37,650 nucleotides of DNA from a virus (IMGVR_UViG_3300045988_125995); one strand, 5' to 3'. Positions 2,948-31,276 are shown, numbered from the stretch's first letter. Made by a program: numbers and translations. The notes: generated by a model not told the origin, from the sequence alone.

Positions 2948-3403
2948 CTAACGCTCCCATGACTTGCGCTCTATATCCTTCACCGCCTCGATGCCGGGGC
3001 GGGCTTTTTTTATCTCCTCGAACCGCTTTATTGCGGCGTGGCGCTCCTTGCCGGGGAACACTTCCGTTTCCGTCTCGGTCTCCGTCCCGTCGGCGTATGT
3101 GGTGATATGTCGGATATAATACTTGATGCCGCTGCATCCGTTATACCGTTCAAGCTTTACGCGGTCTTTGCTGGGCATTGTGGCAAGGGCGTTATATCTG
3201 GCGGCGAGGTCTTGCCGGTACTCTATAAGCTGCGTTGCCAGGTGCTTGCACTCTGCAATCAGCTCGGCGGCGCGGCGGTCATAGTCCCTGATTTTGTCGT
3301 AGTTGTCGCAGGCTTCAGGGCGCTTCAAATAGCCCCATATCCTTATTTCCGCTTCTTGGCTGGGGCTACCGTAGCGGGTGAACAGCTCGTCTTTATAGCT
3401 CAT
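2948..3403 (-). CDS. Hypothetical protein (151 aa); terminates with TAG
   Basis: ATG 3403 preceded by AGGAGGTAAAAAG. Stop is TAG (2948-2950); the next in-frame stop is TGA 20 codons later (2885-2887). Confidence 0.7.
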   Translation of the reverse strand: MSYKDELFTRYGSPSQEAEIRIWGYLKRPEACDNYDKIRDYDRRAAELIAECKHLATQLIEYRQDLAARYNALATMPSKDRVKLERYNGCSGIKYYIRHITTYADGTETETETEVFPGKERHAAIKRFEEIKKARPGIEAVKDIERKSWER

Positions 3404-5955: not shown

Positions 5956-6072
5956 ATGTGTCCGAAATGCAGGGCGAAGCTCGGAAGGGCTGAGTATGGC
6001 GCGGTAGGCAAGGGGATAGTTCTCTATTGCCGAGGGCGTGACTGCAAGATGCCGGTGCGTGTAAAATTGTGA
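5956..6072 (+). CDS. Com-like zinc-ribbon protein (38 aa)
   Basis: MCPKCRAKLGRAEYGAVGKGIVLYCRGRDCKMPVRVKL has CxxC...CxxxxC spacing like Mu Com-family regulators. GAGGA lies 10 nt upstream of the ATG. The rest of ORF 5431-6072 is G/R-rich and not protein-like. Confidence 0.5.
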   Translation: MCPKCRAKLGRAEYGAVGKGIVLYCRGRDCKMPVRVKL

Positions 6073-6149: not shown

Positions 6150-6224
6150 GCTGGTGTAGCTCAATGGAAGAGCGGCTGCTTCGTAAGCAGCCGGTTGAGG
6201 GTTCAAGTCCTTCTGCCAGCTCCA
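6150..6224 (+). tRNA. tRNA-Thr (anticodon CGT)
   Basis: Manual cloverleaf: acceptor GCTGGTG/TGCCAGC; D stem GCTC/GAGC; anticodon stem GCTGC/GCAGC with loop TTCGTAA (CGT at 6182-6184); T stem GAGGG/CCTTC with loop TTCAAGT; CCA encoded. Confidence 0.85.
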
Positions 6225-6227
6225 TAT

Positions 6228-6302
6228 AGCAGAGAGAGTGCTGGTGCTCCTCCGGGACTCATAATTCCGGCTACGTCGGTTCGATTCCGGCCTCTGCTAC
6301 CA
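6228..6302 (+). tRNA. tRNA-Met-like (anticodon CAT; could equally be an Ile2/lysidine type), atypical D arm
   Basis: Acceptor AGCAGAG/CTCTGCT; anticodon stem CGGGA/TTCCG with loop CTCATAA (CAT at 6260-6262); T stem GTCGG/CCGGC with loop TTCGATT; CCA encoded. A at position 8 and a weak D stem. Confidence 0.6.
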
Positions 6303-6521: not shown

Positions 6522-7967
6522 TTGAAGAAGAAAGCGTCCGGAAATGTAAATATCGAGTGGGATCCGGGCGAGGTCAACCCGAAGCAGAAAGAATTCCTCG
6601 ACAGTCACACACTGTTCACCTGTTACGGCGGAGCAAAGGGCGGCGGCAAGACGCATATCGTCAGGATAAAGGCGATAGGCGCGGCGCTGGTGGGCTATCC
6701 GGGGATAAAGATACTCATAATGCGAAAGACGTATAACGAGCTGGAGGAAAACCACATCCGGCCGATACTGCGCATGGTGAGTCCGGAGCTGTTCAGCTAC
6801 AACAACACATCGCACTTGATGACCTTTGAAAACGGGTCAACCATCAAGTTCGGCCATTGGAGCGGAGAAGAGAGCTTCAACGAGTACAACGGCCTTGAAT
6901 ACGACTGGATTTTCATAGACGAGGCGACGCAGTTCACGGAGCGCGCCTTCAACTTCCTCGGCGGCTGTCTGCGAGGCGTGAACGACATTCCGAAGCGGAT
7001 GTACCTGACGTGCAACCCCGGCGGCGTAGGTCATGCCTGGGTCAAGCGGCTCTTCATCGACAGGGACTTCAAGCGAAGCGCGAACCCCGAAGAGGACGAG
7101 AATCCGGACGATTATACCTTCATCTTCGCAAAGGCGGAGGACAACACCTTCCTGCTCAAGTCCTCGCCTTTGTACCTGAAGAATCTAGCCCAGATGCCGG
7201 AGGAGCTTCGGCGCGCTTACCGTGACGGCGACTGGGACAGCATCGGCGGGAACTACTTCCCCGAAATGCTGAGTGGACGGAACGTGACGGCTCCGTTCAA
7301 GATACCGCAGCATTGGACGCGCTACCGCTCGTTTGACTACGGCCTTGATATGTTCGCCTGCTTCTGGTGGGCAGTGGACGAGGACGGGCGCTGCTGGTGC
7401 TACCGCTCGTTTGAGCATGAGGGGCTGATAGTAAAGGACGCGGCGAAGGCTGCGCTTGACCACACCCTTGCAAATGAGCAGATCATAGCGACATACGCGC
7501 CGCCCGATATGTGGAACCGGCAGAAAGAGACCGGCAAGACAATGGCGGAGTTGTTTCTCCTGAATGGCGTGAACATCGTGAGGAGCGACAATAACCGCGT
7601 ACAGGGGCACATGGTCATGAAAGACATGATGGCTCCGATAGCGCTGAAAGACCCCTATGTACAAAGCCTTTACCCCGCGGGGCAGGCTCCGGACAGACTG
7701 CCGGGGCTGATGTTCTTCGACGGGTGCAAGAAAGCAATCAGCGACCTGAAGGCGATACAGCAGGACGACAAGAACCCGAACGACTGCGCGAAAGACCCGC
7801 ACGAGATAACCCACACCGTTGACGGAATACGTTATTTCTGCGTGACGCGGGTTATAAGCGGTGAAGCCCTGCCGGAGCTTCAGCCGGAGGACGACGAGGA
7901 CGAGGACGGCGACAGCTACGAGCATTACATGTGCGGCGGCCGTGCCGACGCGAGATATTTACTGTGA
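6522..7967 (+). CDS. terL: Terminase large subunit
   Basis: TTG start 7 nt after GGGAGA. Walker A YGGAKGGGKTH; Walker B-like WIFIDEATQF; C-terminal nuclease-type region. No in-frame TAG. TGA stop. Confidence 0.9.
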   Translation: MKKKASGNVNIEWDPGEVNPKQKEFLDSHTLFTCYGGAKGGGKTHIVRIKAIGAALVGYPGIKILIMRKTYNELEENHIRPILRMVSPELFSYNNTSHLMTFENGSTIKFGHWSGEESFNEYNGLEYDWIFIDEATQFTERAFNFLGGCLRGVNDIPKRMYLTCNPGGVGHAWVKRLFIDRDFKRSANPEEDENPDDYTFIFAKAEDNTFLLKSSPLYLKNLAQMPEELRRAYRDGDWDSIGGNYFPEMLSGRNVTAPFKIPQHWTRYRSFDYGLDMFACFWWAVDEDGRCWCYRSFEHEGLIVKDAAKAALDHTLANEQIIATYAPPDMWNRQKETGKTMAELFLLNGVNIVRSDNNRVQGHMVMKDMMAPIALKDPYVQSLYPAGQAPDRLPGLMFFDGCKKAISDLKAIQQDDKNPNDCAKDPHEITHTVDGIRYFCVTRVISGEALPELQPEDDEDEDGDSYEHYMCGGRADARYLL

Positions 7968-7976
7968 GGTGACACG

Positions 7977-8375
7977 ATGGCAAAACCCGGCCCGAAGAGA
8001 AAATAGGACAGCCCTGACAAGCTGCGGGCAGCTGTCGAGGCCTACATAGAGAAGTGCGAGGCGGAAGGCATTTTCCCCGACGAAGCGGGAATGAGGCTTG
8101 AGCTTGGCGTTACGGCGCAGACCCTCGACAAATACTGCAAGGACGAGAACGCGGATGGGAAAGAGTTCCGCGAGATACTTTCGTGGGCGAAGGACAAGCG
8201 CGAAAGCTACCTCGTGCGGAAGATGACCAGCGACAACAAGGCGGCGCAGGGCTGCCTCAATGCGCTGAAGCAGCCGTCAAACGGCGGCTACATAGACCGG
8301 CCTGCCGACTCCGGCGGCGAGCGGAAGCTCACGATAAACCTTGTGGGAGTGGGCGGAGAGAGCGCCTTCAAGTAA
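7977..8375 (+). CDS. terS: Terminase small subunit-like protein, with in-frame TAG at codon 10 (8004-8006)
   Basis: ATG 7977 after GAGGTGA. Reads MAKPGPKRK[TAG]DSPDKLRAAVEAYIEKCEAEG...GVTAQTLDKYCK, the N-terminal motif plus HTH typical of TerS. The ORF-track fragment 8091-8375 is the same frame. TAA stop. Confidence 0.7.
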
Positions 8376-8386
8376 GGCGCGTATAT

Positions 8387-8470
8387 GGGCCGGTGGCAGA
8401 ATGGGATTGCGGCTGACTCTAAATCAGCTGCCTGACGGCGGAGAAGGTTCGATTCCTTCCCGGCTCACCA
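8387..8470 (+). tRNA. Amber-suppressor tRNA (anticodon CTA), class II with long variable arm and discriminator A73
   Basis: Acceptor GGGCCGG/CCGGCTC (one G-U pair); D stem GCAG/TTGC with loop AATGGGA; anticodon stem GCTGA/TCAGC with loop CTCTAAA (CTA at 8419-8421); 14-nt variable arm TGCCTGACGGCGGA; T stem GAAGG/CCTTC with loop TTCGATT; A then CCA encoded. Confidence 0.85.
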
Positions 8471-8487
8471 GAAAAAAGGAGATTACA

Positions 8488-8823
8488 TTGCTGACTATCA
8501 TACTTATCTTAATCTTTGCCGTGGTCTTCGTGGGCGCGCTTGCTGTTCTGCAACACAGCCTCTCAGGTAAAGCGGAAGAGGAAGACATGCTGGAACAGGT
8601 GGCGCGCCTTGCGAGAGCGCAGGAGCGGTTAAACACGCGGCTCGAAAAGCTGGAAGAGCAGGTCTTTCGGCAGAAGGGCGGCGAGCTTGACGAGATAAAA
8701 AGACGGCTCGAAGAGCTGGAGAGCGACACTGCGGGAGGCAACGCGGCGCTTGACCAGATGTTTCTCGCGGGGATCAACGGCATTATGAATTACGGCATGA
8801 AGGACGCAGTAAAGCGAGGCTGA
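8488..8823 (+). CDS. Membrane-anchored coiled-coil protein (about 111 aa), unknown function
   Basis: TTG start 7 nt after AAGGAG. N-terminal TM LTIILILIFAVVFVGALAVL followed by heptad-like LEKLEEQV...RLEELE. TGA stop. Confidence 0.55.
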   Translation: MLTIILILIFAVVFVGALAVLQHSLSGKAEEEDMLEQVARLARAQERLNTRLEKLEEQVFRQKGGELDEIKRRLEELESDTAGGNAALDQMFLAGINGIMNYGMKDAVKRG

Positions 8824-8826
8824 TAA

Positions 8827-10545
8827 ATGGGACAGTTTGATATTTTCTACGGCAAAAAGCTGCCTGATTAGCAGAGCGGCTGGCGGCTTTACGATGAGGC
8901 CGAACGCTTCAACTCCAACATAAACCTGCGCGAGACGGTGCGGGTGAACGAGAATTTCTACATTGGCAAGCAGTGGGAGGGCGTACAGTCCAACGGTCTG
9001 CCGACTCCGGTTTTCAACTTTATAAAGCGCGTCGTCGGCTTTGACGTGGCGACGATAACCTCGGACAACGTGAAGGTGACGGCCTCGCCGCTTGCGAACA
9101 CCGCGAACACCGACGGGCTTATAGAGCCGGTGCGGATAGTGAACGAGGAGTTTGACGCGCTGGCGGCAAGAAACAAGATATCCTCTCTGCTGAGAGAGTT
9201 TGCCCGCAATGCCGCGGTGGACGGCGACGGCTGCCTGTACACCTATTGGGACGCCGACGCGGAGACCGGCCAGCAGTCCAAGGGCATGATCCGGACGGAG
9301 ATAGTAGAAAACACGCGGGTGTACTTCGGGAACCCGAATGACCGGCGCGTACAGACCCAGCCGTGGATAATGATAGGCAGCCGCGAGATAACCCGCATCG
9401 TTCGCCGCAGGGCGAAGGAAAACGGGATGGCCGAGTGGCAGAGTATCAGCCCCGACTGCGAGGACGACAGCGTTGACACGGCGAAGGTGACGGACGACAA
9501 GACGACCGTGCTTCTGCTGCTGTGGCGCGACGAGGAGACGGGACACATATGGCAGTATGAATTCACACGCAATTCCGGTGTGACTGCCCCGATAGACACA
9601 AAGCTTTCGCTTTATCCTATCTGCTGGCTGAGCTGGGACTACGTGCAGGACTGCTATCACGGGCAGAGCATGGTGACGGGACTGACCCCGAACCAGATGT
9701 TCGTCAACAAGATTTGGGCGGCTGCGATGCTCTCGATGCTCCGCACGGCGTTCCCGAAATGGATATACGACAAGACCCGCATAAAGCGCTGGGACAACGG
9801 CGTCGGCACGGCAATCGGCATATCGGGCGGCGACGTATCAACGGTGGCGAAGGTGATAGACCCTGCCTCCATATCCCCGCAGGTGGCGCAGTTCATCGAC
9901 ATGGCGGTAAAGCAGACGGAAGAATGCCTCGGCGCTACGAGCGTTGCGCTCGGCGACACCCGCCCCGACAATACCTCCGCCATTATAGCCCTTCAGCGCG
10001 CAGCATCCACGCCGATGGAGATGACGAAGCTCAACCTTTATCAGGCGGTGGAGGACTTGTTCAGGATATACCTCGACTTCATGTCCGCCTACTACGGAGT
10101 GCGCGCGGTTGACATGGAGCCTACGCCGGAGATACGGCAGCAGTATGAATTTGCAGGGATGCCGGTTCCGGACTCCATCATTGCGGAATTCGACTTTGAC
10201 ACGTTGAAATTCCACCCGATGATGCTGAAGCTCGACGTCGGCGCAAGCTCCTACTACTCCGAGATAGCGTCAATCCAGACGCTGGATAATCTGCTAATGA
10301 ACGGGCATATCAACGCAATACAGTACCTTGAGAGAATCCCCGACGGCTATATACCGGCGCGCCGGGCATTGATAAACGAGCTGAAAGCAACGCAGGCCAT
10401 GAACGCGGTTCCGCCCGGAGCACCACCCAACGCGGCGACCGGCGACGTGGCGGCACAGGCAAAGCCGGAAATCCCCACGGGCGGCGGATTCTCTGATCTG
10501 CAACGCAAGGTGTTGGAGTCGGGATCGACTCAAGGACTTATCTGA
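8827..10545 (+). CDS. Portal protein, with in-frame TAG at codon 15 (8869-8871)
   Basis: ATG 8827 is in frame with ORF 8938-10545. Reads MGQFDIFYGKKLPD[TAG]QSGWRLYDEAERFNS..., then VNENFYIGKQWEG. About 570 aa and located next to the terminase. TGA stop. Confidence 0.8.
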
Positions 10546-12083: not shown

Positions 12084-13145
12084 ATGGCAACTATAAATCT
12101 TATGGACAAGTGGGCGCCTCGCCTTGAGAAGCGCTTTACGACCGGCTCCATCACCGACAAGTGGTGCGGCACCAACTGGGAGTGGACCGGCGTTAACACC
12201 CTGAAGACTCTGACTCTGCTTACCGACCCCCTGAACGATTAGAACCCTGCGGCAAATGCGAACCGCTTCGGCACTATGACCGAGGTGGACGACGAGGCCA
12301 ACTCCTACACGCTGACCAAGAAGCGCAGCTTTGACAAAGCCTTTGACGAGACCAACGTGCAGGATCAGAACTTCCTCAAGAAGGGCGCGGCCTACCTCAA
12401 GCAGATGTGGGACGAGAGATACGTCCCTGAGATCGACACCTACCGTTTCGCCCGCTGGGCAGACGGCGCAGGTCTCGGCACTGTCGCTACGGCGGCTATC
12501 TCCAAGACCAATATCGTCGAGGCGCTGCTGAACGCTCACGCCGCGCTTGATGACGCGGGCGTCCCGATGGAAAACCGCGTTACCTTCATACGCAGCGACT
12601 ACGCTGTAAAGTACAAGCTTGCGGACGAGTTCAAGTATGAGGGCGCGAAGGAGTTCATCCAGAAACGCCAGATCGGCGAGGTCGAGGGCAGCCCGCTTAT
12701 CAAGGTTCCGAAGAACCGCTTCCCGGCCGGCGTGGCCTTCATGGTCAAGTACAAGCAGGCGACGGCAGACCCCGTAAAGATGCGTATGCTCCGCGCAAAG
12801 GACGACTCCGATGACCTGTGCGGCGTCCGTATGCAGGGTCTCGTCCGCTACGACAGCTTCGTGCTGGCGCAGAGCGCAGACGGCATCTATGTCTACGGCG
12901 AGAACGCAGGCAACGTGCTTCAGGCTCCGACCTTCTCCACCGCCTCAAACAAGGTGACTATCACGAGCGCCGACAGCGCAAGCATCAAGTACACCACTGA
13001 CGGCACCAACCCCAAGACCTCGGCGACTGCGCAGGCTTACAGCGCGGCTGTGACCATCACGGAGAACACCACGTTCAGAGCATACGCCTACGCGACCGGC
13101 AAGACCAGCTCCGCCATCGGCAGCTACGATGCGGTGAAGACCTGA
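12084..13145 (+). CDS. Major capsid protein with C-terminal Fn3/CHB_HEX_C-like decoration domain; in-frame TAG at codon 53 (12240-12242)
   Basis: ATG 12084 after GGAGGA. Reads MATINLMDKWAPRLEKRF...LLTDPLND[TAG]NPAANANRFGTMTEVDD, in frame with ORF 12276-13145, which has no SD of its own. C-terminus IKYTTDGTNPKTS...TTFRAYAYATGK. A strong terminator follows. Confidence 0.8.
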
Positions 13146-15470: not shown

Positions 15471-16268
15471 ATGGCATTTACAAAACTGACAGAAGATATT
15501 GCATAGATAAGCAAGCTGGACGACGAGCCGAATGACGTTGACGGGCTTTCCGCCGACCAGCTGAAAGCGACGTTCGACAAGGCCGGGATTACTATCAAGA
15601 CGTGGATAAACACCGTTCTGCTCCCCGCGCTTGAGGGCAGCGCGGCTGCCGGAAACCTCGGCATAGCAGCAATATCCGGTCTTACCGGCATAGCAACTGT
15701 GCAGGCGGCGCTGGAAAAGCTTGAAGCGCAGATAAGTGAGGCGGCAGTCGGTGACATTCCAGACGCATCTCTCACAGCGGCAAAGCTGGCAGACAACGCT
15801 GTTACCGGAAGCAAGATAGCGGACGGCGCGGTAGGCTCGGCGAAGATAGCGGACGGTGCCGTGACATCGGGCAAGCTTGGCGCGGGCGCTGTAACGGCGG
15901 AGAAGATAGCAGCTCTAGCCGTTGCGACTGCGGCTATTGCGGAGCTGGCCATTACCACAGCGAAGATAGCAGACAAGGCCATTACCACAGCGAAGATAGC
16001 AGACAAGGCCGTCGGCACTTACCAGATGGACGACAGCAGCATTACGTCTGCAAAAATCAGAGGCGGAGTCGTTACAGCAGACAAGCTTGCGTCCGGCGCG
16101 GTTACTACCACAAAGCTTGGCGCGGGCGCAGTCACCGGCGAAAAGCTGGCAGCAGGTGCACCCAATACGGCAATGGCAGCGACGCGGTACAAACTGGTCA
16201 GCGGTGTACACTATGGCAGCTCTTTGCCGCCGGACATCGCAGACGACGAGCTGTTTTTCCTTGTATGA
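15471..16268 (+). CDS. Tail fibre-like protein with Ala/Gly/Val/Lys-rich ~10-residue repeats of the type (I/L)A-D/x-x-A(V/I)T-x-x-K; in-frame TAG at codon 12 (15504-15506)
   Basis: ATG 15471 after AAGGGGTG. Reads [11 protein letters not shown][TAG][27 protein letters not shown], in frame with ORF 15699-16268. Confidence 0.7.
15951..16010 (+). repeat. Perfect 30-bp tandem duplication inside the fibre repeat region
   Basis: ATTACCACAGCGAAGATAGCAGACAAGGCC occurs twice (15951-15980 and 15981-16010) and encodes [10 protein letters not shown] twice. Confidence 0.95.
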
Positions 16269-16825: not shown

Positions 16826-17134
16826 ATGACAATATTGCAGGGCGACGCATAGCTCATACCGATAGCATTGACAGCTGACGGCGAGCCTGTCACGGACGCG
16901 GATATTGAGGCGATGGAGGTCATTCTCGGCGGCATATCCAAGCTCTACCCGGACGAGCTGGGCTATGCCAACGGCGAGTTCCAGTTCCCGCTGACGCAGG
17001 AAGAGAGCTTCGCTATGGCAGAGGACAGATACGACCTTCTGATACGGCCTAAGTTTGCCGACGGCACCGTGTCGGGCGTACTCAAGGCAGGGGAGATAGA
17101 GGTCGTAGCGACAGACACGAGGAGAGTGCTGTGA
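16826..17134 (+). CDS. Small virion protein; in-frame TAG at codon 9 (16850-16852)
   Basis: ATG 16826 sits 4 nt after AAGGAGG. Reads MTILQGDA[TAG]LIPIALTADGEP..., in frame with ORF 16868-17134, whose TTG start has no SD. Confidence 0.65.
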
Positions 17135-17418
17135 TGAGAACCGTGACGGCAAAGATGCAGCGGGTGCGGCGGATAAGCGCCAACATTGGCGCAGGCTCAC
17201 AGCTCGCTCTTGACCTCGGAATAAAGATAACGGCCGACACGTCGCCAAAATATACCGGAGAATATGACGTGCGGCCTAAGACTTACGAGCCGGTGGTGCT
17301 GGAGACGAAGGGACGCTCAATGCTGGACGACGTGACAGTGCAGAAAATCCCGCAGTTCGAAGTTTCAAACGACGCGGGCGGGAAAACACTTATTTTGGGG
17401 GATGAATATTATGGCTAA
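17134..17418 (+). CDS. Small virion protein (94 aa)
   Basis: ATG 17134 overlaps the upstream TGA (TGATG). GGAGAG lies 7 nt upstream. TAA stop. Confidence 0.55.
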   Translation: MRTVTAKMQRVRRISANIGAGSQLALDLGIKITADTSPKYTGEYDVRPKTYEPVVLETKGRSMLDDVTVQKIPQFEVSNDAGGKTLILGDEYYG

Positions 17419-17995
17419 CTAGTTCAACAAGGTAATACTCGGTACAGAGGTAAAGCTTGACCTTACGGGCGACGACATAACCGCGGCTGACCTGAAGAAG
17501 GGTATCAAAGCGCACGACAAGAGCGGAGCGCCAATCGTCGGCACGAATACGAACGACGCGAACACCTCGGACGCGACGGCGACTGCGGCGGAAATACTCA
17601 AGGATAAAACCGCTTATGTGGCAGGTTCCAAGCTGGCCGGCACGATGCCGAACAACGGGGCAAAGACACTTGAAATAGCTACCAAGGACGGCACACCACC
17701 CATCCCCATGGGCTTTCACGACGGCAGCGGCAAGGCGCAGATAGCGGCGGCGGAGAAAGCAAAGCTTATCCCCGAAAACATCCGCGAGGGCATAACAGTG
17801 CTCGGCGTAGCCGGTTCTATGTCCGGTTCCGAAGGAATGAAGCCGCAGGCAAAGTCTGTCACTCCGAGCTTCGCAAGTCAGGAGGTTCTGCCCGACAGCG
17901 GCTACAATTGCCTGTCCTCGGTGACGGTCGCGGCGATACCTGTTTCAGAAGCAGCCAACGCGGCGGGAGGAATAACGCTCACGATAGGAGGCTGA
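17411..17995 (+). CDS. Tail fibre/spike N-terminal-module protein (paralogous N-terminus to 17997-18641); in-frame TAG at codon 4 (17420-17422)
   Basis: Reads MAN[TAG]FNKVILGTEVKLDLTGDDITAADLKKGIKAHDKSG, in frame with ORF 17618-17995. The neighbour starts MGVSKVIIDDEVKLDLTADTVEPAALKAGYTAHNAAG. Confidence 0.65.
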
Positions 17996-17996
17996 C

Positions 17997-18641
17997 ATGG
18001 GAGTAAGCAAGGTCATTATAGATGACGAAGTTAAGCTTGACCTGACGGCGGACACGGTAGAGCCGGCGGCGCTCAAAGCAGGGTATACAGCGCACAACGC
18101 AGCAGGAAACAAAATAGTGGGGACTATGTCGGCTTCGGGTGGCACTTTTAAGGTAACGGTGACGTTCTACCCCGATACACATATGTGTACTTCGGACAAA
18201 ACATTGCAGGAGGCTCTGGCCGCCTACAATGCGGGTATGCTGCCTTACGTCGAGTTTCACAGTTATGATGCCGTGGAATTCTATGAAATGCAGGCCAAGA
18301 GTGATGCCGAGATAATATTTGTGCATTACTTTATGTCGTTCAACGCCTCCAACGATGGTATTGTAATGCCCTCAATGGGGTGCTACTCCATTACCCTCAC
18401 TGACGACGGCGCAATTCTGGACGACTCCGGTTCGAGCGACGTGGTAAGCTATGTGGCAGTTAACCCAAACCTCAATGCGCCTTCAGAAGATACCGTGCCA
18501 AGTACGCAATGCGTCTCGAACGCGCTAAGCAAAAAGCTCAACAAGCAGCTTGTGGCCGGAGAAGACTACTTTGACAGTGAGGCTGCGCTGCCTGCGCCCG
18601 GAACTGTCGGGAGAATATATTTTGTAAAGGCGGAGGCGTGA
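17997..18641 (+). CDS. Tail fibre/spike protein, second copy of the N-terminal module with a different C-terminal domain
   Basis: ATG overlaps the upstream stop (TGACATG). Shares the KV...EVKLDLT..T......K.G..AH...G..IVGT motif with 17411-17995. Confidence 0.6.
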   Translation: MGVSKVIIDDEVKLDLTADTVEPAALKAGYTAHNAAGNKIVGTMSASGGTFKVTVTFYPDTHMCTSDKTLQEALAAYNAGMLPYVEFHSYDAVEFYEMQAKSDAEIIFVHYFMSFNASNDGIVMPSMGCYSITLTDDGAILDDSGSSDVVSYVAVNPNLNAPSEDTVPSTQCVSNALSKKLNKQLVAGEDYFDSEAALPAPGTVGRIYFVKAEA

Positions 18642-19474: not shown

Positions 19475-20245
19475 ATGGCAAAGACAAATACCGGACTCGT
19501 CGAGTACGCACTGGCGCAACTGGGCAAGCCCTACTGGTGGGGCACCTTCGGGCAGACGGCCTCGGCGGCGCTGCTCGCGCAGAAGCGTGAGCAGTACCCG
19601 GATAGGTATGACTCGTATGGCGACGAGTGCAAGAAGCAGTATGGCCAGAAGGTACATGACTGCGTCGGGCTTATCAAGGGCTATCTTTGGAGCGACACAC
19701 CGGACAGCGAGCCTATATACAAGGCGGCGCAGGACGTGGCGGTATCTGGGCTGTATCTGGTCTGCCCTGAAAGCGGCAGCATCGACACCATGCCTGACAT
19801 ACCGGGCGTGTGCGTGTTTATGCGGGACATGTCCCACGTCGGCGTTTACGTCGGCGGCGGCTACGTCGTAGAGGCAACCGGCCACGCGCGCGGCGTGGTC
19901 AAGACCAAGCTTGCAGGGCGCGGCTGGGGGCTGTGGGGCAAGCCCCGCTGGATAAGTTACGAGGCTGCTGCCACTCCAGCACAGCCTGCACAGACCGCAC
20001 AGACCACCGCCTCGGGGCTGACCGTCACCGGCCTGCCGCTGCTGCGCTACGGCGACAAGGGAGAGTGCGTCCGCTCGGCGCAGATGCTCCTCATCGGGCG
20101 CGGCTACTCCTGCGGCAGGTGCGGCGCGGACGGCGAAATAGGGCAGGACACTTTCAATGCGGCGGTGGCGTACCAGCGCGCCTGCGGCTTGCAGCAGGAC
20201 GGTATCATAGGCGCTCAGACTTGGGCGCGGCTGATAGGAGGTTAA
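19475..20245 (+). CDS. Endolysin: NlpC/P60-type peptidase plus C-terminal peptidoglycan-binding (PG_binding_1-like) domain
   Basis: LGKPYWWG...HDCVGLIKGY (Cys) and SHVGVYVGGGYVVEA (His). C-terminus GDKGECVRSAQMLL..GY.....DGEIGQDTFNAAVAYQRACGLQQDGIIGAQTW. Confidence 0.85.
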   Translation: MAKTNTGLVEYALAQLGKPYWWGTFGQTASAALLAQKREQYPDRYDSYGDECKKQYGQKVHDCVGLIKGYLWSDTPDSEPIYKAAQDVAVSGLYLVCPESGSIDTMPDIPGVCVFMRDMSHVGVYVGGGYVVEATGHARGVVKTKLAGRGWGLWGKPRWISYEAAATPAQPAQTAQTTASGLTVTGLPLLRYGDKGECVRSAQMLLIGRGYSCGRCGADGEIGQDTFNAAVAYQRACGLQQDGIIGAQTWARLIGG

Positions 20246-20248
20246 GGC

Positions 20249-21196
20249 ATGGCAACCTTTGAGGAAACCTACAGCAAGTACAATGCTGACCGTGCATCTG
20301 CTATAAACGGAATGTACGACGCTCAGAAAGCCGCTACGCTCAGTCAGCTTGAGAGCGCATAGAACCAGAACCGGCAGACACAGGAGGCGGCCAAGAACCA
20401 GATAGCGCCGACGTATCAGCAGAGGGCGAATGACCTCGCGGTGCAGTATGAGCGCAACCGCCGGAACTTCAACCAGCAGGCGGCGGGCAGCGGCCTCAAC
20501 ACCGGCACGGCGTCGCAGGCGGCGCTCGCCCAGAACAGCACTTGGCAGAGGGATTACGGCAATCTCCGCACGGCGGAGGCGGACGCACTGACGGAGGCTG
20601 ACCGGCAGATGGCGGCGCTTGAGACGCAGTACAAGTCCGCAGTTGCTCAGGCGATAGCCGAGAACGACTACAACCGCGCAAAAGCGCTCATGGACGAGTA
20701 CGGCAATCAGGAGTCCCGCGACGCGACAATGGCGAAGATACTTGCTGGCTACGGAGACTTCAGCGGCTACGCAAAGCTCTACGGCGACGACGCTGCAAAC
20801 AACATGGCGCAGTATTGGATATACTCAAACCCGCAGCTTGCTTACAGTATGGGCAAGATAAGCGCAGACGAGTATGCAAGGCTGACCGGGAAGCGCACCG
20901 GCGGCAAGGCGACCGGAGGCAAAACGCTCAGTGAGGCTTTCACTGATGATAAATATGGGCAGGATTACACCAGCAACGGTCTTAACCTCACGGATATGAT
21001 GGAACTCATCAATAAGGGCGACACGCTTTCGGCTCTCAGACAGGCAGAGGCTTTCGCCGCAGATGCCTACGCAAACCCCGACAAATACACCGACTCTCAA
21101 ATTGAGCGAATGGTCGAACTCAAAAGAATGGCGCAGAGAGGCCAGAAGATTAGCGGTTCGGTTGGCGGCGGGCGGAACCTCGACGCACTTAGATAA
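20249..21196 (+). CDS. Q/A/N-rich coiled-coil virion protein; in-frame TAG at codon 38 (20360-20362)
   Basis: ATG 20249 after AGGAGG. Reads ...ATLSQLESA[TAG]NQNRQTQEAAKNQIAPTYQQRAND, in frame with ORF 20441-21196, which starts at an internal GTG. Confidence 0.65.
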
Positions 21197-21211: not shown

Positions 21212-24200
21212 ATGGCAAGTAGAGAAGAAAACCTCAGATACCTTGCGGGCGGCAGTTTGCCAAAAGATACCGGAGCCGCAAACGGATCCAGTATTACTGG
21301 CACTAAGGAAGTGCAAACTGATGGACTGAGCGAAAAAGCTCGACGCAGAGAAGAGAACCTCAGATACCTTGCTACGCCTGCGGAGGACATCACTCCGAAA
21401 AACGAGACCGTCGAGAACAGCAGCTTCACGAGCAAGAGCGGCAAGTTTGACGCTTCTGCCGCGGCTCCTACCGCCGACTATACCCAGCAGCGCGCGAAGC
21501 TGCAAAAGGAGCTTGACAGGCTCGACAACGCCGCCGCATACGTGACGACCACGGAGCAGAGCGACGAGATAGACGCGCAGCGCAAGCCCATAATAGAACA
21601 GCTGCGCAAGCTCGACGAGGCGGAGGGCAAGACCGGCGTATACACCGGCGGCGACCGGCTGAAAAACGCCCTCGGCAACGCGAAGCTTGCGACTCAGCAG
21701 GGCTTGACGCAGGCTGACCACCGGATAGCCCAGACCGCCGACTGGCTCTTCGGCGGCATCGCCAAGGAGGGCAAGGCGCTTGTGAACGCTACCCTTCAGA
21801 CGATAAACCCCAACTGGGGCTTCGAGGACGAAGACCCGTGGATTACGAGATATAACAAGCGCGGGACTGAGGTGCTGGCACAGAACGACGCCGTAGCCCA
21901 GCGGCGCATTGAGGAAGGCAAGCTCAACAAGACCGCTTGGAAGTATGCCCCCGAAGTCGTGGCCGCTATCCCCGACGCTGTGCTGGCCTTTGCGACAGGC
22001 GGCGCGAGCACCGGCGCACAGGCGACGAGAGCGGGGCTTGAGACGGCTTCGGCCATAGCGCAGGGCAGCAGCGCGGCGCAAAAGCTCATCCCAATTGCGG
22101 ACGCTACGAAGAACATGATGAAGTCTCCCGCGTGGTTGAGCGCCTTTGCGCAGACCGCGGGCGGAAGCTACGAGGAGGCACTGGCCGACGGCGCGACGGA
22201 GGAGCAGGCGAACCTCTACGCGCTCCTCAACGGCTTTGCGAACGCTACGATTGAAGTCGGCGGTACTGACGAGGCGATGGGCGGTATTCAGAAGCTGCCG
22301 CAGCAGCTCAGAGACGCGCTCGAAAAGGGCAACAAGCGCGCCGTTATGCAGTGGGTACGGAGCCCGGCGGGCGAGGCGATAGAAGAAGTGCTTCAGGGTA
22401 TGGCCGAGAAGGGACTGCGCGGGCTTTATACGAACGACGTTCCGCTTTACTCGGAAACCGACGAGAACGCGGTAATAAACCCGAAGCGCGCCAAGGAAGA
22501 AGCCCTCGGCGGACTCATCGTCGGCGGTGTACTCGGCGGCGGGCAGATGGCCATACAGTCCGCTATCAACAGCGGCAGGGGGCAGAACGCGAACGGCGCC
22601 CAGACGGCGCAGGAGACGCAGAACGCGGCGGGGGATATCTCCGCACCACCCACGCAGGAGAACGCCGACACGGGCGCTTCTGCGCGGTTAAACTCCGACG
22701 TACAGACCGACGTGGACTCACAGAACGCAGAGGACATAAAAAAAGCAGCCTCCGAGGCTGCAAATGCCGATATAACGGGAGACTCGCGCGTCGCCAATGC
22801 CGAAGCCTCGCGTAGCACGTCCGAAACGAAAAATGCACTCTCTCCCGCGGCGGAAGCAGATGCTTCCAATGCCAATATAGCACCGGAAGCGCAGAATGTC
22901 AATCCCAACGTCCCCGCGCAAACGGTGGAGGAGTCCGGCGGGAAGAAGCGGAGTCAGACCGAGGCGCACACCCTCCAGACGATAGACGAGCGCCTTGACA
23001 CTCCGGCGGCGGAGCGCGAGGAGCTGTATTATATCCCGAAATCCGAGAGCGAGAGTCTGCGCGAGGCGGCGGAGCGTATACGCGAGGACATGCCCGGAGC
23101 GCGGGCGGAGCTTGCGGCGAAGGACATGTGGAGCGGGACTGACCACGACACGGCAATGGGCATACTCGGATCACTGAACCGTGAGGCCGCGCAGACCGGC
23201 AATTATGACGACTTCCGCGCATGGCGCAGGACGATACAGGAACACGGCACGGACACGGCGCGGGCTTTGCAGTCCCTCGCCAAGTACACGCGCACCGGAA
23301 CAGGGGCGATGATGGACGCGGTGGATATCATCGACAGCTCCAACATAAGCGGCGAGCTTAAATCTGCGCTCACGGCAGAGGTCGGGCGTTACTCCGAGGA
23401 GTACGACGCGGCGCGAGCCAAGGCCGAAAACGGCAATCTCGCCGACATGGCAGACCTCATAGAGCGCATGGCGAGGCGGCGCAACACTTGGACTTTCGGC
23501 AAGAACCGATACAGCAAGATCGTCCGCGAGCTCGCGTCGGACAAGTCGAACGCTGAATGGCTCACGGACTACGCATACAGGCAGATATCCGCAATAGCAA
23601 GCGACGCCGCGGTGAAGGTTCCCTTCTCGCAGAAGGTGAAGAGCGCGCAGACGACGGCACAGCTCACGAGCATCGGGACGTTTCTCCGGAACATCGGCGG
23701 CAACGTCACCTTCGGAGTGCAGGACACGCTCTCTCAAAACGGTGTAGCTCTCGCCATTGACCGCCTCATCTCGCAGGCGACGGGGAAAAGAACCGTCGGC
23801 GCGGACAAAAGCTGGTTTTCCTCCGAGGCGAGGAAGGGCGCACGGGACGCGATGCAGAAATCCATACTTGAAGTCGCGGGCGACATCGACATGAACGGCA
23901 ATGAGAACCGCTACGGAATGACGTCGAGCCGGTCATGGAGGATGAGCGGAAACGCGGCGGAGCGCTTCATGTCCCGCTGGCAGCAGCTTCTCGGCTACTC
24001 GCTGACGACCTCCGACCGCTTCTCCCGCGGCGCGATAGAGGCGGAGATCACGCGAGGGCTTGACGCTCTTGGCAACAGCGGGCTGACGGCGGAGGAAAAG
24101 GCTGCCATTGCAAAGCAAACCGCCGACTACCGCCTGTTTCAGAATCACGGCGAAGCTTACAAAGCCTCAAAGGCGATACATGACTTTTTCAACGTCGCCG

Positions 24201-26332: not shown

Positions 26333-26692
26333 CTATCTTGAAAGCTCCTCGATGTTCACGAGCCGCTTAACAAGTATCTCGGTCAGAAACTCCTGCGTGG
26401 TGCAACCCTCCTCCTCGATGAGGGCGCGCACCTGACGATAGAGATCATCGGGGAGGTAGACAACGAGCCGGTGAGGCTTACGGCGGTTCGGGACTTTGTG
26501 CCCGTCATGCTCACCGACGAAGCGCTCAGCCAAGTGCCGCTCGGCGGCGGGGAGGAGACGGACGCCGTATTTTTCGGGGTTATCTACCATGGACTGCGTC
26601 GCCTTGCCGTACTTCGGGTACAGCTCACGCAGGGCGGAGATCATATCTTTACCGGAAACGGAGTTGGTCTCCCTGAACTGCTTATAATCCAT
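26333..26692 (-). CDS. Hypothetical protein with C-terminal RHH-like segment; terminates TAG-TAA
   Basis: ATG after AAAGGAGAAAAACA. RLVVYLPDDLYRQVRALIEEEGCTTQEFLTEILVKRL. Stop TAG (26333-26335) is immediately followed in frame by TAA (26330-26332). Confidence 0.65.
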   Translation of the reverse strand: MDYKQFRETNSVSGKDMISALRELYPKYGKATQSMVDNPEKYGVRLLPAAERHLAERFVGEHDGHKVPNRRKPHRLVVYLPDDLYRQVRALIEEEGCTTQEFLTEILVKRLVNIEELSR

Positions 26693-28171: not shown

Positions 28172-28711
28172 CTATATGCACTTATCGAACTTCGTGCGGG
28201 CTTTCTGCATGCACTGGTTTACCCACTGGCGGGAAACGCCTATACGGGCGGCTATCTCTTTCTGAGAATAGCCGCAATAGGCGAACTGTACGGCTTGACG
28301 CTCTCTATCAGAGAGGGAGGCAAGGAAAGCCTTACTGTCGAGCCAGCCTGTATCGGGCTGGACGCCGTACATCTCATGCAGGGGCGAGCCTTCTCCATCC
28401 ATCGCCTGCGCATCGAGCGGGATAAGAGGCGCGGGCGGCGTCCTGTGTTGCAGGTTGGCCATCATGTGCAGGCGGCGTATCTCGTTGAGGATATACCGCA
28501 CGGCCAGAGCGTAGAGACTGCCGCGCGACGGGTCATAGACGCAGCAGGCGTGCCAGAAGGCAAGGTGGGCTTCCTGCATGACGTCATCGTCAAAGAGATA
28601 CTGCCGGTAATACTTCTTGACGACATCCCCGACGATTCGCCGGTTTTTGAGGTAGAGCGCCTCGGCCGGTGCCCACTCTGACGGGGAGGGGGGAGATGGG
28701 CTGTTACTCAT
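28172..28711 (-). CDS. Sigma-70 family (ECF-like) RNA polymerase sigma factor; terminates with TAG
   Basis: Region-2-like DDDVMQEAHLAFWHACCVYDP and region-4 HTH YSQKEIAARIGVSRQWVNQCMQKAR. TAG stop (28172-28174), then GAG GAT GAA TAA in frame. Confidence 0.8.
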   Translation of the reverse strand: MSNSPSPPSPSEWAPAEALYLKNRRIVGDVVKKYYRQYLFDDDVMQEAHLAFWHACCVYDPSRGSLYALAVRYILNEIRRLHMMANLQHRTPPAPLIPLDAQAMDGEGSPLHEMYGVQPDTGWLDSKAFLASLSDRERQAVQFAYCGYSQKEIAARIGVSRQWVNQCMQKARTKFDKCI

Positions 28712-30565: not shown

Positions 30566-31276
30566 CGGCTCACGACCTCCAGCAGCTCCACGCGCTCACA
30601 GCGTATCTTGCCGTCCGAGTTATACGGGACACACACGCCGCAGAGCCATTCCCAGCGGATCAGCACCTTCCAGATAGCGCCGCCTCGCCAGCCGTAATGA
30701 CTCTTCACCCAGTCGAGGGGCGCGACGTTTATGCCGCATCCGCATTCGTCGCAGCGGTTGAAGTTGACGTTCTCGGTTATCACACTGCCCTCCGCGATCG
30801 TCCAGCTTTCAGGCGCGGCGTACTCGGAGTTGAAGGTTTTATATGCTATGTAGCCGTCGGCGACGCGCTCAAAATGAGCGTCAATGAAATTAACGGCAGA
30901 AAGAAGTTCTTTTGCCCCGCTGAGGTCTGCATAGCTGAGGTCTGCATAGCTGAGGTCTGCCCCTCTGAGGGTCTGCCCCTCTGAGGGTTGCCCCGCTGAG
31001 GTTTGCCTTGCTGAGGTCTGCCCCGCTGAGGGTTGCCCCGCTGAGGTTTGCCTTGCTGAGGTCTGCCTTGCTGAGGTCTGCCCCGCTGAGGTCTGCCCCT
31101 CTGAGGGTTGCCCCGCTGAGGTTTGCCTTGCTGAGGTCTGCCCCTCTGAGGGTTGCCCCGCTGAGGTTTGCCTTGCTGAGGTCTGCCCCGCTGAGGTCTG
31201 CTCTTACTCCGCCCTTTTCATCGTTAAGCCACAGCTTATGCGCGGCCAGTATTTCTGCAAGTTTTTCAGGTGTCAT
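30562..31276 (-). pseudogene. Pentapeptide-repeat protein gene with C-terminal Cys-rich domain. The frame is broken by one extra nt in repeat unit 30961-30976 (pseudogene, sequencing error or +1 frameshift).
   Basis: Frame A (31276-30890) encodes about 17 A(D/N/T)LxG/K/Y units, then nonsense PQRGRPQLCRPQ. Frame B continues ADLSYADLSYADLSGAKELL... to TGA 30562 and has no start codon of its own before GTG 30783. Confidence 0.7.
30916..31203 (-). repeat. 15-nt periodic tandem repeat array (coding pentapeptide repeats), with one 16-nt unit
   Basis: Units such as CCCGCTGAGGTCTGC, CTTGCTGAGGTCTGC and CCCTCTGAGGGTTGC. The unit CCCTCTGAGGGTCTGC (30961-30976) is 16 nt. Confidence 0.9.

What the first reader, a model, noticed from the sequence alone, without database searches (positions are those of the whole stretch)
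8387..8470. Phage-encoded class-II suppressor tRNA(CTA) between terS and portal
A complete cloverleaf with anticodon loop CTCTAAA (anticodon CTA at 8419-8421) sits 11 nt after the terS stop and 17 nt before the next gene. It therefore lies inside the late transcription unit that needs it.

It has a 14-nt variable arm (TGCCTGACGGCGGA, internal GCC/GGC stem), a G1-C72 pair, discriminator A73 and an encoded CCA. In bacteria a long variable arm is restricted to Leu, Ser and Tyr tRNAs, so this suppressor is not derived from tRNA-Gln or tRNA-Trp. A73 argues against Ser, which normally has G73.

The T arm GAAGGTTCGATTCCTTC and the anticodon stem-loop resemble bacterial tRNA-Tyr. The TGGCAGAATGGG D region also resembles tRNA-Leu.

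terS itself carries a TAG at codon 10, so the tRNA gene is co-transcribed directly behind a gene that depends on it.
Basis: partly seen in the sequence, partly recalled or inferred. Interest (0 to 1): 0.85.

Follow-up and report, generated by a model that had tools for sequence, protein, structure and literature searches.

The report
Phage tyrosine-inserting amber suppressor tRNA
A common 37.6-kb temperate gut phage carries its own tRNA that most likely reads the stop codon TAG as tyrosine, and seven of its virion genes each hold one early TAG, so they can only be made when that tRNA is present.

Summary
ARAGORN and Rfam (56 bits) both call a tRNA at 8387-8470 with anticodon CTA, a long variable arm, A73 and an encoded CCA. 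A sister lineage keeps it through two compensatory T-stem pair changes.

It is needed. Seven + strand late genes (terS, portal, major capsid, a fibre-like protein and three others) each carry one in-frame TAG. Conserved coding sequence lies on both sides of the TAG in six of them; the seventh has only three codons upstream and leans on one homologue and a paralogue.

The inserted residue is most likely tyrosine:
- The capsid TAG column is Tyr in 119 of 119 homologues.
- The terS column is Tyr in 52 of 82.
- Two further sites are mostly Tyr.
- Near-identical or sister genomes have TAT or TAC exactly where the window has TAG, in capsid, terS and portal.
- No column holds Gln.

One site (fibre) is Ile in all relatives.

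All seven TAGs lie in the first 15% of their genes (P about 1e-6). No late gene ends in TAG, while three of the roughly 30 other genes do.

This is the known phage stop-codon recoding strategy, but in a new variant: TAG to Tyr, sparse N-terminal ambers, a small high-GC temperate phage, and relatives that look like evolutionary intermediates. The regulatory purpose, charging and expression are all untested.

The parts
8387..8470 (+). tRNA with anticodon CUA (amber suppressor): long variable arm, A73, encoded CCA
   Evidence: ARAGORN. Rfam tRNA model 56 bits. Pair-preserving and compensatory changes in relatives.
8419..8421 (+). Anticodon CTA inside the loop CTCTAAA
   Evidence: ARAGORN places the anticodon at position 33 of the tRNA.
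6522..7967 (+). Terminase large subunit. It has no TAG and lies upstream of terS and the tRNA.
   Evidence: Pfam Terminase_3 and Terminase_6N. No in-frame TAG.
7977..8375 (+). Terminase small subunit with an in-frame TAG at 8004-8006 (codon 10 of 132)
   Evidence: Pfam GP3_package and phrog_606 both span the TAG. The TAG column is Tyr in 52 of 82 homologues and Phe in 12. Sister lineage L308 has TAC there.
8488..8823 (+). 111-aa membrane/coiled-coil ORF, starting 17 nt after the tRNA. It has no TAG.
   Evidence: Conserved in relatives.
8827..10545 (+). Portal protein with an in-frame TAG at 8869-8871 (codon 15 of 572)
   Evidence: Pfam P22_portal and phrog_156. Homologues align on both sides of the TAG. 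Sister lineage L308 has TAC (Tyr) at this codon; tRNA-less L309 has TGT.
12084..13145 (+). Major capsid protein with an in-frame TAG at 12240-12242 (codon 53 of 353)
   Evidence: phrog_422. 119 of 119 full-length homologues have Tyr in the TAG column. Relatives L001 and L002, whose capsid gene is 98.6% identical, have TAT there.
15471..16268 (+). Tail-fibre-like protein with an in-frame TAG at 15504-15506 (codon 12 of 265)
   Evidence: PHROG tail-fibre families. The N-terminal motif is conserved across the TAG. The column is Ile or Val in relatives, so this site does not support Tyr.
16826..17134 (+). 102-aa late protein with an in-frame TAG at 16850-16852 (codon 9)
   Evidence: AGGAGG ribosome-binding site plus ATG. 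The TAG is conserved in 8 relatives. The four best homologues from genomes without the tRNA have 'GDAY'.
17411..17995 (+). 194-aa late protein (phrog_13589) with an in-frame TAG at 17420-17422 (codon 4)
   Evidence: L001 and L002 have CAC here. The paralogue at 17997 starts at the equivalent position.
20249..21196 (+). 315-aa late protein with an in-frame TAG at 20360-20362 (codon 38)
   Evidence: The TAG column is Tyr in 30 of 34 relatives from genomes without the tRNA. The TAG is conserved in 7 close relatives.
28172..28711 (-). Phage sigma-70-family factor, a candidate driver of late transcription. It ends in TAG, followed by 3 codons and then TAA.
   Evidence: Pfam Sigma70_r2 and Sigma70_r4. 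Stop context. Its role in late transcription is inferred.
6150..6302 (+). Two further phage tRNAs, Thr(CGT) and Met(CAT), just upstream of terL
   Evidence: ARAGORN. Rfam detects the Thr tRNA.

Best explanation
The element is a functional phage tRNA with anticodon CUA. It reads UAG as a sense codon, most likely tyrosine, after charging by the host tyrosyl-tRNA synthetase, much like the laboratory suppressor supF.

Seven late genes each contain exactly one in-frame TAG within their first 4-53 codons: terS, portal, major capsid, a fibre-like protein and three further late-module proteins of unknown role. Full-length virion proteins therefore cannot be made unless this tRNA is present and charged. 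Genes outside the late module contain no internal TAG, and three of them use TAG as a true stop. The phage thus runs two readings of TAG: stop outside the late module, Tyr in the late module.

The tRNA gene lies inside the late gene block, 11 nt after terS. It is probably released from the late transcript by RNase P and 3' trimming; the CCA is already encoded.

Shown here:
- the tRNA and its conservation;
- the seven internal TAGs;
- the Tyr correspondence;
- the N-terminal bias.

Inferred:
- charging by TyrRS;
- co-transcription with the late genes;
- that the early ambers act as a translational gate or dependency that holds back structural proteins until the suppressor has accumulated. This is the model proposed for recoded phages in bioRxiv 10.1101/2021.08.26.457843.
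For: The tRNA is real: with covariation.

The TAGs are internal to genes. Homologous sequence continues on both sides of the TAG in capsid, terS, portal, fibre, g16826 and g20249. Each proposed start has a ribosome-binding site. Six of the seven TAGs are kept in every close relative that covers them; only the capsid and g17411 codons vary, both in L001/L002.

Evidence for Tyr:
- Capsid column: Tyr in 119 of 119 homologues.
- terS column: Tyr 52, Phe 12 of 82. The nearest homologue reads PGPKRKYDSPDKL.
- g20249 column: Tyr in 30 of 34.
- g16826 column: Tyr in the four best homologues.
- TAG in the window corresponds to TAT in the capsid of L001/L002.
- TAG corresponds to TAC in terS and portal of sister lineage L308.
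- A crude likelihood over the seven sites gives Tyr -7.0 against -14.2 for the next residue; no Gln occurs in any column.

tRNA features:
- A73, G1-C72 and U35 are present. These are the bacterial Tyr determinants listed in PMC9976931, and the long variable arm fits bacterial tRNA-Tyr.
- With the anticodon left free, 118 of 120 genomic tRNAs sharing this anticodon stem, a long arm and the T loop are tRNA-Tyr(GTA).

Distribution of TAG:
- All 7 TAGs, against 254 TAT/TAC codons in 19 late genes, lie in the first 15% of their gene. P is about 4e-7 to 4e-6.
- No late gene ends in TAG, and no gene outside the late module has an internal TAG.

Evolutionary order:
- The closest tRNA-less relative, L309, has ordinary sense codons at the four sites it covers, and only 9 nt between terS and the next ORF.
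- Sister lineage L308 has the tRNA but Tyr codons in terS and portal.
Against: - There are no expression, charging or proteomic data.
- The D arm (4-bp stem, 7-nt loop, A15) is unlike bacterial class-II tRNAs. It is identical to that of a class-I tRNA-Ala, so isotype assignment from the body is ambiguous.
- The fibre TAG column is Ile or Val in all relatives.
- The portal and g17411 columns are variable.
- The gate is not indispensable. The capsid site is polymorphic: the full-length TAT allele cluster has 56 members and the truncated TAG allele cluster 98. Sister lineage L308 has Tyr codons in terS and portal although it carries the tRNA.
- The tRNA gene lies downstream of the terS TAG and within the same block as the genes it would 'release'. 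That is an odd layout for a simple timer.
- Homologue counts are not independent.
Confidence: 0.72

Rival explanations
1. Neutral ratchet. The suppressor reads TAG as Tyr, but the seven ambers have no regulatory role. Once the tRNA was present, TAT/TAC to TAG mutations became tolerable and drifted in. They survive only near N-termini, because incomplete suppression late in a gene would waste more synthesis and yield poisonous truncated virion proteins.
For: - Sister lineage L308 has the tRNA but Tyr codons in terS and portal.
- The capsid TAG/TAT polymorphism is common.
- Relative L001 has an extra mid-gene TAG in the tape-measure gene where the window has CAG.
- Relative L315 has a TAG inside a terL intein.

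Together these suggest that TAGs come and go. The acquisition-first path is the one proposed in bioRxiv 10.1101/2021.08.26.457843.
Against: - The positional bias is very strong (P about 1e-6).
- There is exactly one TAG per affected gene, in 7 of 19 late genes spread along the whole late block.
- Six of the seven sites are retained in every close relative that covers them.
- This model does not explain why a suppressor was acquired and kept in the first place.

It shares the decoding mechanism with the best explanation and differs only on purpose.
Confidence: 0.3
2. The suppressor inserts another amino acid, such as Leu, Ser or Gln. The TAGs sit at former Tyr codons only because TAT/TAC to TAG is a single-base change.
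For: - A73 is shared with tRNA-Leu. The D region (A14, A15, GG) resembles tRNA-Leu, and so does the variable stem of the one Leu(TAA) tRNA found.
- The fibre column is Ile or Val, and some distant terS homologues have Ile or Leu, where Leu would be conservative.
- CUA suppressors are often glutaminylated in E. coli, as noted in bioRxiv 10.1101/2021.08.26.457843.
Against: - An invariant Tyr (119 of 119 in capsid) would be replaced by a non-conservative residue.
- The E. coli Leu elements A15-U48 and A20a are absent: the base before the T stem is A, and the 7-nt D loop has no insertion.
- A73 replaces the G73 of tRNA-Ser, and the variable stem has only 3 bp.
- No Gln occurs in any TAG column.
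Confidence: 0.1
3. The TAGs are real stops. The code-11 annotation (terS 94 aa, portal 533-535 aa, capsid 289 aa) would be correct, and the tRNA a relic or a pyrrolysine tRNA, as ARAGORN labels it.
For: Public gene calls truncate these genes in this way. ARAGORN prints 'tRNA-Pyl'.
Against: - The segments upstream of the TAGs are conserved protein sequence, in frame and with ribosome-binding sites.
- The truncated versions would lack conserved N-terminal parts.
- The tRNA has G18G19, a TTCGA T loop and a 14-nt variable arm. From my own recollection, tRNA-Pyl has none of these; I did not compare it with a reference tRNA-Pyl sequence.
- None of the roughly 25 window proteins scanned against Pfam or PHROGs is Pyl-related.
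Confidence: 0.02

Closest known systems
Phage-encoded Sup-tRNA(CUA) with TAG recoding ('genetic code 15') in crAss-like, Lak and other gut phages (bioRxiv 10.1101/2021.08.26.457843; PMC9523058)
   Same: The phage carries its own CUA suppressor. In-frame TAGs are confined to structural/late genes, while the other genes use the standard code. The host is presumed to use the standard code. A path in which the tRNA is acquired before recoding was proposed there, and the same kind of intermediates are seen here.
   Different: - TAG means Gln in those phages. The authors state they observe only TAG to Gln and TGA to Trp. Here the codon evidence says Tyr and no column holds Gln.
- Those phages are mostly large, low-GC and virulent, with many TAGs per gene. 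This one is a 37.6-kb, 57% GC temperate phage with 7 TAGs in all, one per gene, all near the N-terminus.
supF / su3+ (E. coli tyrT amber suppressor, tRNA-Tyr with anticodon CUA)
   Same: It is a long-arm tRNA with A73, G1-C72, U35 and A36, and C34 in place of G34, that inserts Tyr at UAG. The anticodon loop CUCUAAA and the T arm are closely similar (my recollection of the E. coli sequence, not tested here).
   Different: supF is a laboratory point mutant of a chromosomal gene with a typical class-II D arm. The phage tRNA is natural and phage-borne, has a class-I-like D arm, and blastn finds no match to it in E. coli genomes.
Nuclear codes that read TAG as Tyr (NCBI table 29, Mesodinium)
   Same: UAG is decoded as tyrosine.
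   Different: That is a genome-wide reassignment of both TAA and TAG in a eukaryote. Here the reading is conditional, supplied by a virus, and affects seven codons. This comparison rests on my own knowledge and was not tested.
Other long-arm CTA tRNAs in IMG/VR viral contigs
   Same: 46 ARAGORN-confirmed CTA tRNAs with long variable arms were found by one pattern scan.
   Different: They belong to other sequence families. Some look Leu-like (L231, L284) and one Ser-like (L248), by my own reading of the sequences. None is related to this tRNA apart from copies from the same phage lineage. Their decoding was not analysed.

Membership tests
tRNA (Rfam RF00005) | Covariance-model score above the gathering threshold, with a complete cloverleaf | tested here: met
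   56.0 bits against a threshold of 29, covering model positions 1-71. ARAGORN cloverleaf.
Class-II (long variable arm) tRNA | Variable region longer than 10 nt that forms its own stem-loop | tested here: met
   14-nt region with a GCC/GGC stem and UGAC loop. The stem is kept in sister lineage L308 with a different loop.
Class-II (long variable arm) tRNA | Typical class-II D arm: 3-bp stem and an enlarged D loop | tested here: not met
   The D stem has 4 bp and the loop 7 nt. The identical D arm occurs in a class-I tRNA-Ala. The 118 tRNA-Tyr found have a different D arm, CCCGAGCGGCCAAAGGG.
Bacterial tRNA-Tyr identity set (PMC9976931) | Discriminator A73 | tested here: met
   A at 8467, before the CCA. 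Determinant listed.
Bacterial tRNA-Tyr identity set (PMC9976931) | G1-C72 first pair | tested here: met
Bacterial tRNA-Tyr identity set (PMC9976931) | U35 in the anticodon | tested here: met
   The anticodon is C34 U35 A36. G34 is replaced by C, as in amber suppressors.
Bacterial tRNA-Tyr identity set (PMC9976931) | Actual aminoacylation by TyrRS | not testable with these tools
   This needs in vitro charging or mass spectrometry.
E. coli-type tRNA-Leu identity (PMC9976931) | A73 together with the A15-U48 pair, G18G19 and A20a in the D loop | tested here: not met
   A73, A15 and the GG are present. However, the base before the T stem is A rather than U, and the 7-nt D loop has no 20a insertion.
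tRNA-Ser identity | G73 and a long variable stem | tested here: not met
   The discriminator is A73 and the variable stem has 3 bp. tRNA-Ser carries G73, which the review lists as an antideterminant against LeuRS and TyrRS. Size of the extra arm as the major Ser element.
tRNA-Pyl (the ARAGORN label) | Pyl-type tRNA architecture together with pyl genes | tested here: not met
   The tRNA has a long variable arm, G18G19 and a TTCGA T loop. That tRNA-Pyl lacks these features is my own recollection, not compared with a reference sequence here. None of the roughly 25 window proteins scanned against Pfam or PHROGs is Pyl-related.
Genetic code 15 (TAG = Gln) phage | In-frame TAGs align with Gln in homologues | tested here: not met
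   There are 0 Gln in the seven TAG columns. Tyr dominates four of them, and TAT/TAC replaces TAG in close relatives.
Stop-codon-recoded phage with a standard-code non-late module | Internal TAGs only in late/structural genes, with TAG still used as a stop elsewhere | tested here: met
   7 of 19 late genes have an internal TAG and none ends in TAG. Three genes outside the late module end in TAG and none has an internal TAG.

The most novel reading that the evidence does not exclude
The seven N-terminal ambers and the tRNA could form a self-reinforcing commitment switch.

An amber codon near the start of a gene releases the ribosome and leaves a long stretch of untranslated mRNA. That is the classical condition for Rho-dependent polarity, which is strongest for promoter-proximal nonsense codons. 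The first amber (terS codon 10) lies upstream of the tRNA gene itself.

- With little suppressor, transcription and translation would die out in terS, so little tRNA and few downstream virion genes would be expressed.
- Once some tRNA accumulates, read-through would protect the transcript, make more tRNA, and open the whole late block.

This would be a natural bistable 'amber lock' on virion production in a temperate phage. It would also be the first documented TAG to Tyr code in a bacterial virus, with relatives at each step: no tRNA, tRNA without the ambers tested, and tRNA with ambers.
Probability: 0.15. Interest if true: 0.85.

Novelty: new variant of a known kind. Interest (0 to 1): 0.66.

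Why it matters
1. It adds a reading of the genetic code, UAG as Tyr, that a survey of recoded gut phages did not find. That survey reported only TAG to Gln and TGA to Trp.

2. It shows that recoding is not restricted to large, low-GC, heavily recoded virulent phages. A small, 57% GC temperate phage uses only seven amber codons. The phage is common in gut metagenomes: its exact integrase occurs in 39 sample blocks, on contigs of about 37.5 kb.

3. Annotation pipelines fail on it in either mode.
   - Code 11 truncates terS, portal and capsid, and calls a spurious ORF across the tRNA.
   - Code 15 would put Gln at an invariant Tyr.

4. The related lineages offer a rare stepwise view of how a stop codon becomes a sense codon: one without the tRNA, one with the tRNA but Tyr codons at the two sites its contig covers, and one with the tRNA plus ambers. 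One site is still polymorphic.

5. The strict N-terminal placement suggests a design rule for translational gating. It could be tested directly, and is of interest for amber-based control circuits.

Tried and rejected
- **Megablast of 6-14 kb against GenBank phages:** no match. tblastn of terL: the best hit is 45% identity to uncultured human-faecal phages. No cultured relative was found, so the host remains unknown.

- **blastn of the tRNA:** only weak partial hits to phage tRNAs (Tyr and Lys) and none to E. coli genomes. This was not usable for isotyping.

- **Search for the D arm with a free anticodon:** besides the same phage, it returned only a class-I tRNA-Ala. The D arm therefore says nothing about isotype.

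- **The single genome-contig scan:** It did not reveal prophage copies or the host.

- **The metagenome scan:** it gave only four more contigs of the same lineage.

- **Body similarity ranking:** it favours tRNA-Tyr for the variable arm, T arm and acceptor half. The reference set is heavily biased towards Tyr, so I count it as weak support.

- **Promoter and terminator scan:** nothing separates the tRNA from terL and terS. The phage has its own sigma factor, so a sigma-70 scan says little.

- **Pyl reading:** rejected (see the membership test).

- **Search for N-terminal TAGs in the minus-strand and other non-late genes:** none found.

- **Survey of other phages with long-arm CTA tRNAs:** it was too noisy to generalise. 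One lineage (L258/L283) shows one or two TAGs per late gene but was not resolved.

- **The last homologue search, on the fibre N-terminus:** it confirmed Ile, not Tyr, at that column.

- **tRNAscan-SE isotype models:** not available.

Full report
**1. The observation**

ARAGORN finds three tRNAs in the window: Thr(CGT) at 6150-6224, Met(CAT) at 6228-6302, and a tRNA with anticodon CTA at 8387-8470. It labels the last one 'Pyl' only because of the anticodon.

Rfam's tRNA model scores the CTA tRNA at 56 bits against a gathering score of 29, E = 1.3e-9, over the full model. The alignment shows an 11-nt insertion in the variable region.

The cloverleaf has these features:
- a 7-bp acceptor stem with G1-C72 and G2.U71;
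- a 4-bp D stem with the 7-nt loop AAUGGGA;
- the anticodon loop CUCUAAA;
- a 14-nt variable region with a GCC/GGC stem;
- the T arm GAAGG-UUCGAUU-CCUUC;
- A73 and an encoded CCA.

The next gene, however, is a small 111-aa ORF (8488-8823), and the portal follows at 8827.

**2. What the window is**

The window is a complete temperate phage genome.
- The exact integrase protein (468-1601) is on record in 39 sample blocks of public assemblies. In 34 of them it sits on contigs of 20-50 kb. The four contigs shown are 37.4-37.8 kb, and at least one is labelled as a gut metagenome.
- The + strand from 6.5 to 26.2 kb is the late block. It runs terL, terS, the tRNA, a small ORF, portal, holin, a scaffold-like protein, major capsid, further virion proteins, a probable endolysin (a PG_binding_1 hit on its L001 orthologue) and a very long (1,675-aa) ORF I take to be the tape-measure protein.
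- The minus strand from 26.3 to 34.7 kb holds the presumed early genes. Pfam hits on window proteins: a sigma-70-family factor, dUTPase and an HTH regulator. A Dam-type methylase and a DUF551 protein are identified from precomputed Pfam hits on the orthologues in relative L316. Replication and recombination roles for the remaining genes are my reading of the translations, not database hits.
- GenBank phages hold nothing close. The best terL hit is 45% identity to uncultured human-faecal phages. The host was not identified.

**3. The tRNA is needed**

Translating the late block shows seven genes that each contain exactly one in-frame TAG. In each case the TAG closes what would otherwise be a non-coding gap:

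| Gene | TAG position | Codon |
|---|---|---|
| terS | 8004 | 10 |
| portal | 8869 | 15 |
| major capsid | 12240 | 53 |
| fibre-like protein | 15504 | 12 |
| g16826 | 16850 | 9 |
| g17411 | 17420 | 4 |
| g20249 | 20360 | 38 |

- Every proposed start has a ribosome-binding site.
- Homologues from phages without any CTA tRNA align on both sides of the TAG in six of the seven genes. The TAGs are therefore internal, not stops followed by new starts. g17411 has only three codons upstream of its TAG and rests on one homologue and a paralogue.
- Six of the seven sites keep TAG in every close relative that covers them (7-8 contigs at 90-99% nucleotide identity). The two exceptions are noted in section 4.
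- None of about 70 more distant relatives (capsid identity 58% or less) has a CTA tRNA.

**4. Which amino acid**

*Codon-level evidence*

| Site | Residues in the TAG column of homologues |
|---|---|
| capsid | Tyr in 119 of 119 full-length homologues |
| terS | Tyr 52, Phe 12, Ile 8, Leu 4 of 82; the nearest homologue (83% identity) reads PGPKRK-Y-DSPDKL with identical flanks |
| g20249 | Tyr in 30 of 34 |
| g16826 | Tyr in the four best homologues |
| portal | variable: Cys, Glu, His, Phe and others |
| g17411 | variable |
| fibre | Ile or Val in all relatives |

More direct still are the codon replacements in close relatives:
- L001 and L002, whose capsid gene is 98.6% identical and which carry an identical tRNA, have TAT where the window's capsid has TAG.
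- Sister lineage L308 (83.7% identity) has TAC at both the terS and the portal sites.
- L001 and L002 have CAC at the g17411 site. That is two steps from TAG by way of TAC.

A crude likelihood over the seven columns puts Tyr 7 log10 units ahead of any other residue. Gln is absent from every column.

*tRNA-level evidence*
- The tRNA carries A73, G1-C72 and U35. The identity review PMC9976931 lists these as bacterial Tyr determinants. Its long variable arm also fits bacterial tRNA-Tyr.
- It lacks the G73 of tRNA-Ser, and it lacks the A15-U48 and A20a elements of E. coli tRNA-Leu.
- A genome scan with the anticodon left free, for this anticodon stem plus a long arm plus the T loop, returned tRNA-Tyr(GTA) in 118 of 120 cases.

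*Caveats*
- The D arm is class-I-like. It is identical to that of a jumbo-phage tRNA-Ala.
- Homologue counts are not independent.
- No charging data exist.

I put Tyr at about 0.8.

**5. The pattern of TAG use**
- The late genes hold 254 TAT/TAC codons and 7 TAGs. All 7 TAGs lie within the first 15% of their gene, or the first 53 codons. If TAGs were random draws from the Tyr positions, P would be 4e-7 to 4e-6. The threshold was chosen after seeing the data, but the effect is large.
- No late gene ends in TAG.
- Outside the late block no gene has an internal TAG. Three genes end in TAG: 2948-3403; 26333-26692, where the TAG is followed directly by TAA; and the sigma factor, where three codons and then TAA follow.

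The genome is thus split into a standard-code part and a part that depends on the suppressor. The same split is described for recoded gut phages.

**6. Evolutionary order**
- L309, the closest lineage without the tRNA (capsid 74% identity), has terS and the next ORF only 9 nt apart. It has TAT, TGT, TAC and ATT at the terS, portal, capsid and fibre sites.
- L308 has the tRNA at the same place. Its T stem carries two compensatory pair changes. It still has Tyr codons in terS and portal.
- The window's lineage has the ambers. The capsid site is still polymorphic in public data: the full-length TAT allele cluster has 56 members and the truncated TAG allele cluster 98.

This fits the order 'tRNA first, ambers later', with TAC/TAT to TAG as the usual step.

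**7. How it most likely works**

*Shown:* a conserved CUA tRNA; seven late genes that cannot yield full-length protein without amber read-through; a Tyr correspondence; N-terminal placement of the ambers.

*Inferred:*
- The tRNA is cut out of the late transcript. No promoter-like or terminator-like site separates it from terL and terS, but the phage sigma factor's promoters are unknown.
- It is charged by the host TyrRS.
- The early ambers make synthesis of terS, portal, capsid and the four other proteins conditional on the suppressor level. That would act as a translational gate or dependency.

The main rival for the purpose is a neutral ratchet with position-dependent purifying selection. 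Three observations support it: the gates are dispensable in relatives; L001 has an extra mid-gene TAG in the tape-measure gene; and L315 has a TAG inside a terL intein.

A more speculative reading links the N-terminal position to Rho polarity. Because the terS amber precedes the tRNA gene, this would create positive feedback.

**8. Comparison with what is known**

The strategy, a phage Sup-tRNA(CUA) with in-frame TAGs in late genes, is known (bioRxiv 10.1101/2021.08.26.457843; PMC9523058; PMC13037316). Those reports assign TAG to Gln. The first states that only TAG to Gln and TGA to Trp were seen.

Full-text searches for TAG or amber reassigned to tyrosine in phages found nothing beyond a simulated TAA-to-Tyr code in a gene-finder paper. 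The searched library does not cover most subscription journals.

Long-arm CTA tRNAs as such are not unique to this phage. One pattern scan found 46 in IMG/VR contigs.

**9. Verdict**

This is a new variant of a known kind. Interest is about 0.66.

Noticed in passing
L315 5067-6087 (contig JABLTO010088334.1); insertion point corresponds to window ~6650 in terL: One close relative has an in-frame intein of about 340 aa in the terL P-loop (GGGK|T). It has a LAGLIDADG_3 domain and resembles DnaB mini-inteins (6bs8, E = 2e-11). The intein itself contains an in-frame TAG ('DLPIPP*TLGALLGDG'), so in that genome terL would also need the suppressor.
   Followed up: partly
L001 about 19639-19641 (corresponds to window codon 482 of the tape-measure gene, 21212-26239): Relative L001 has TAG where the window has CAG (Gln), and the reading frame continues beyond it. 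This is a mid-gene amber at a non-Tyr codon. Gene callers split the tape-measure gene there.
   Followed up: partly
L308 1594-1760 (sister lineage, Logan SRR30347321): In the sister lineage the portal start ATG is ACG, preceded by TGA TAG, yet the conserved portal N-terminus continues in frame. How that portal is initiated is unclear.
   Followed up: no
window 6150-6302; L003, L007, L314 and L315 between the two tRNAs: The phage also carries tRNA-Thr(CGT) and an odd tRNA-Met(CAT) with a weak D arm, just upstream of terL. Several relatives have an insertion of about 250-320 bp between them, holding a degenerate tRNA-like element to which ARAGORN gives a 2-nt anticodon.
   Followed up: no
window about 5960-6072 (+): A small Cys-rich ORF that looks like a zinc ribbon (…MCPKCRAKLGRAEYGAVGKGIVLYCRGRDCKMPVRVKL) ends just before the tRNA pair and the late block. 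A sigma-70-like promoter match lies at 6038-6067. It could be a late-gene regulator.
   Followed up: no
window 8341-8823 (+); L001 6318-6740: Standard gene calling produces a spurious 140-160-aa ORF that runs straight through the tRNA gene. It also truncates terS to 94 aa, portal to 533-535 aa and capsid to 289 aa. Public protein clusters hold these truncated forms.
   Followed up: yes
Loci L207-L307 from IMG/VR (for example L231, L284, L248, L258/L283): 46 other long-variable-arm CTA tRNAs occur in unrelated viral contigs. By my reading of the sequences, some have clearly Leu-like or Ser-like bodies. L258/L283 (47% GC) shows one or two in-frame TAGs per late gene, including terL. TAG may therefore be read as residues other than Gln in several phage groups.
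   Followed up: partly
window 30890-31276 (-): A pentapeptide-repeat protein (ADLSGADLSKANLSGATL repeats) sits among the minus-strand genes. Its length varies between relatives: 73-78 aa in L316 and L319.
   Followed up: no
window 28172-28711 (-) and 26333-26692 (-): Two of the three genes that end in TAG have a back-up stop within four codons: TAG-TAA, and TAG followed by three codons and TAA. This would limit the damage from read-through once the suppressor is expressed. With only three cases it may be chance.
   Followed up: partly
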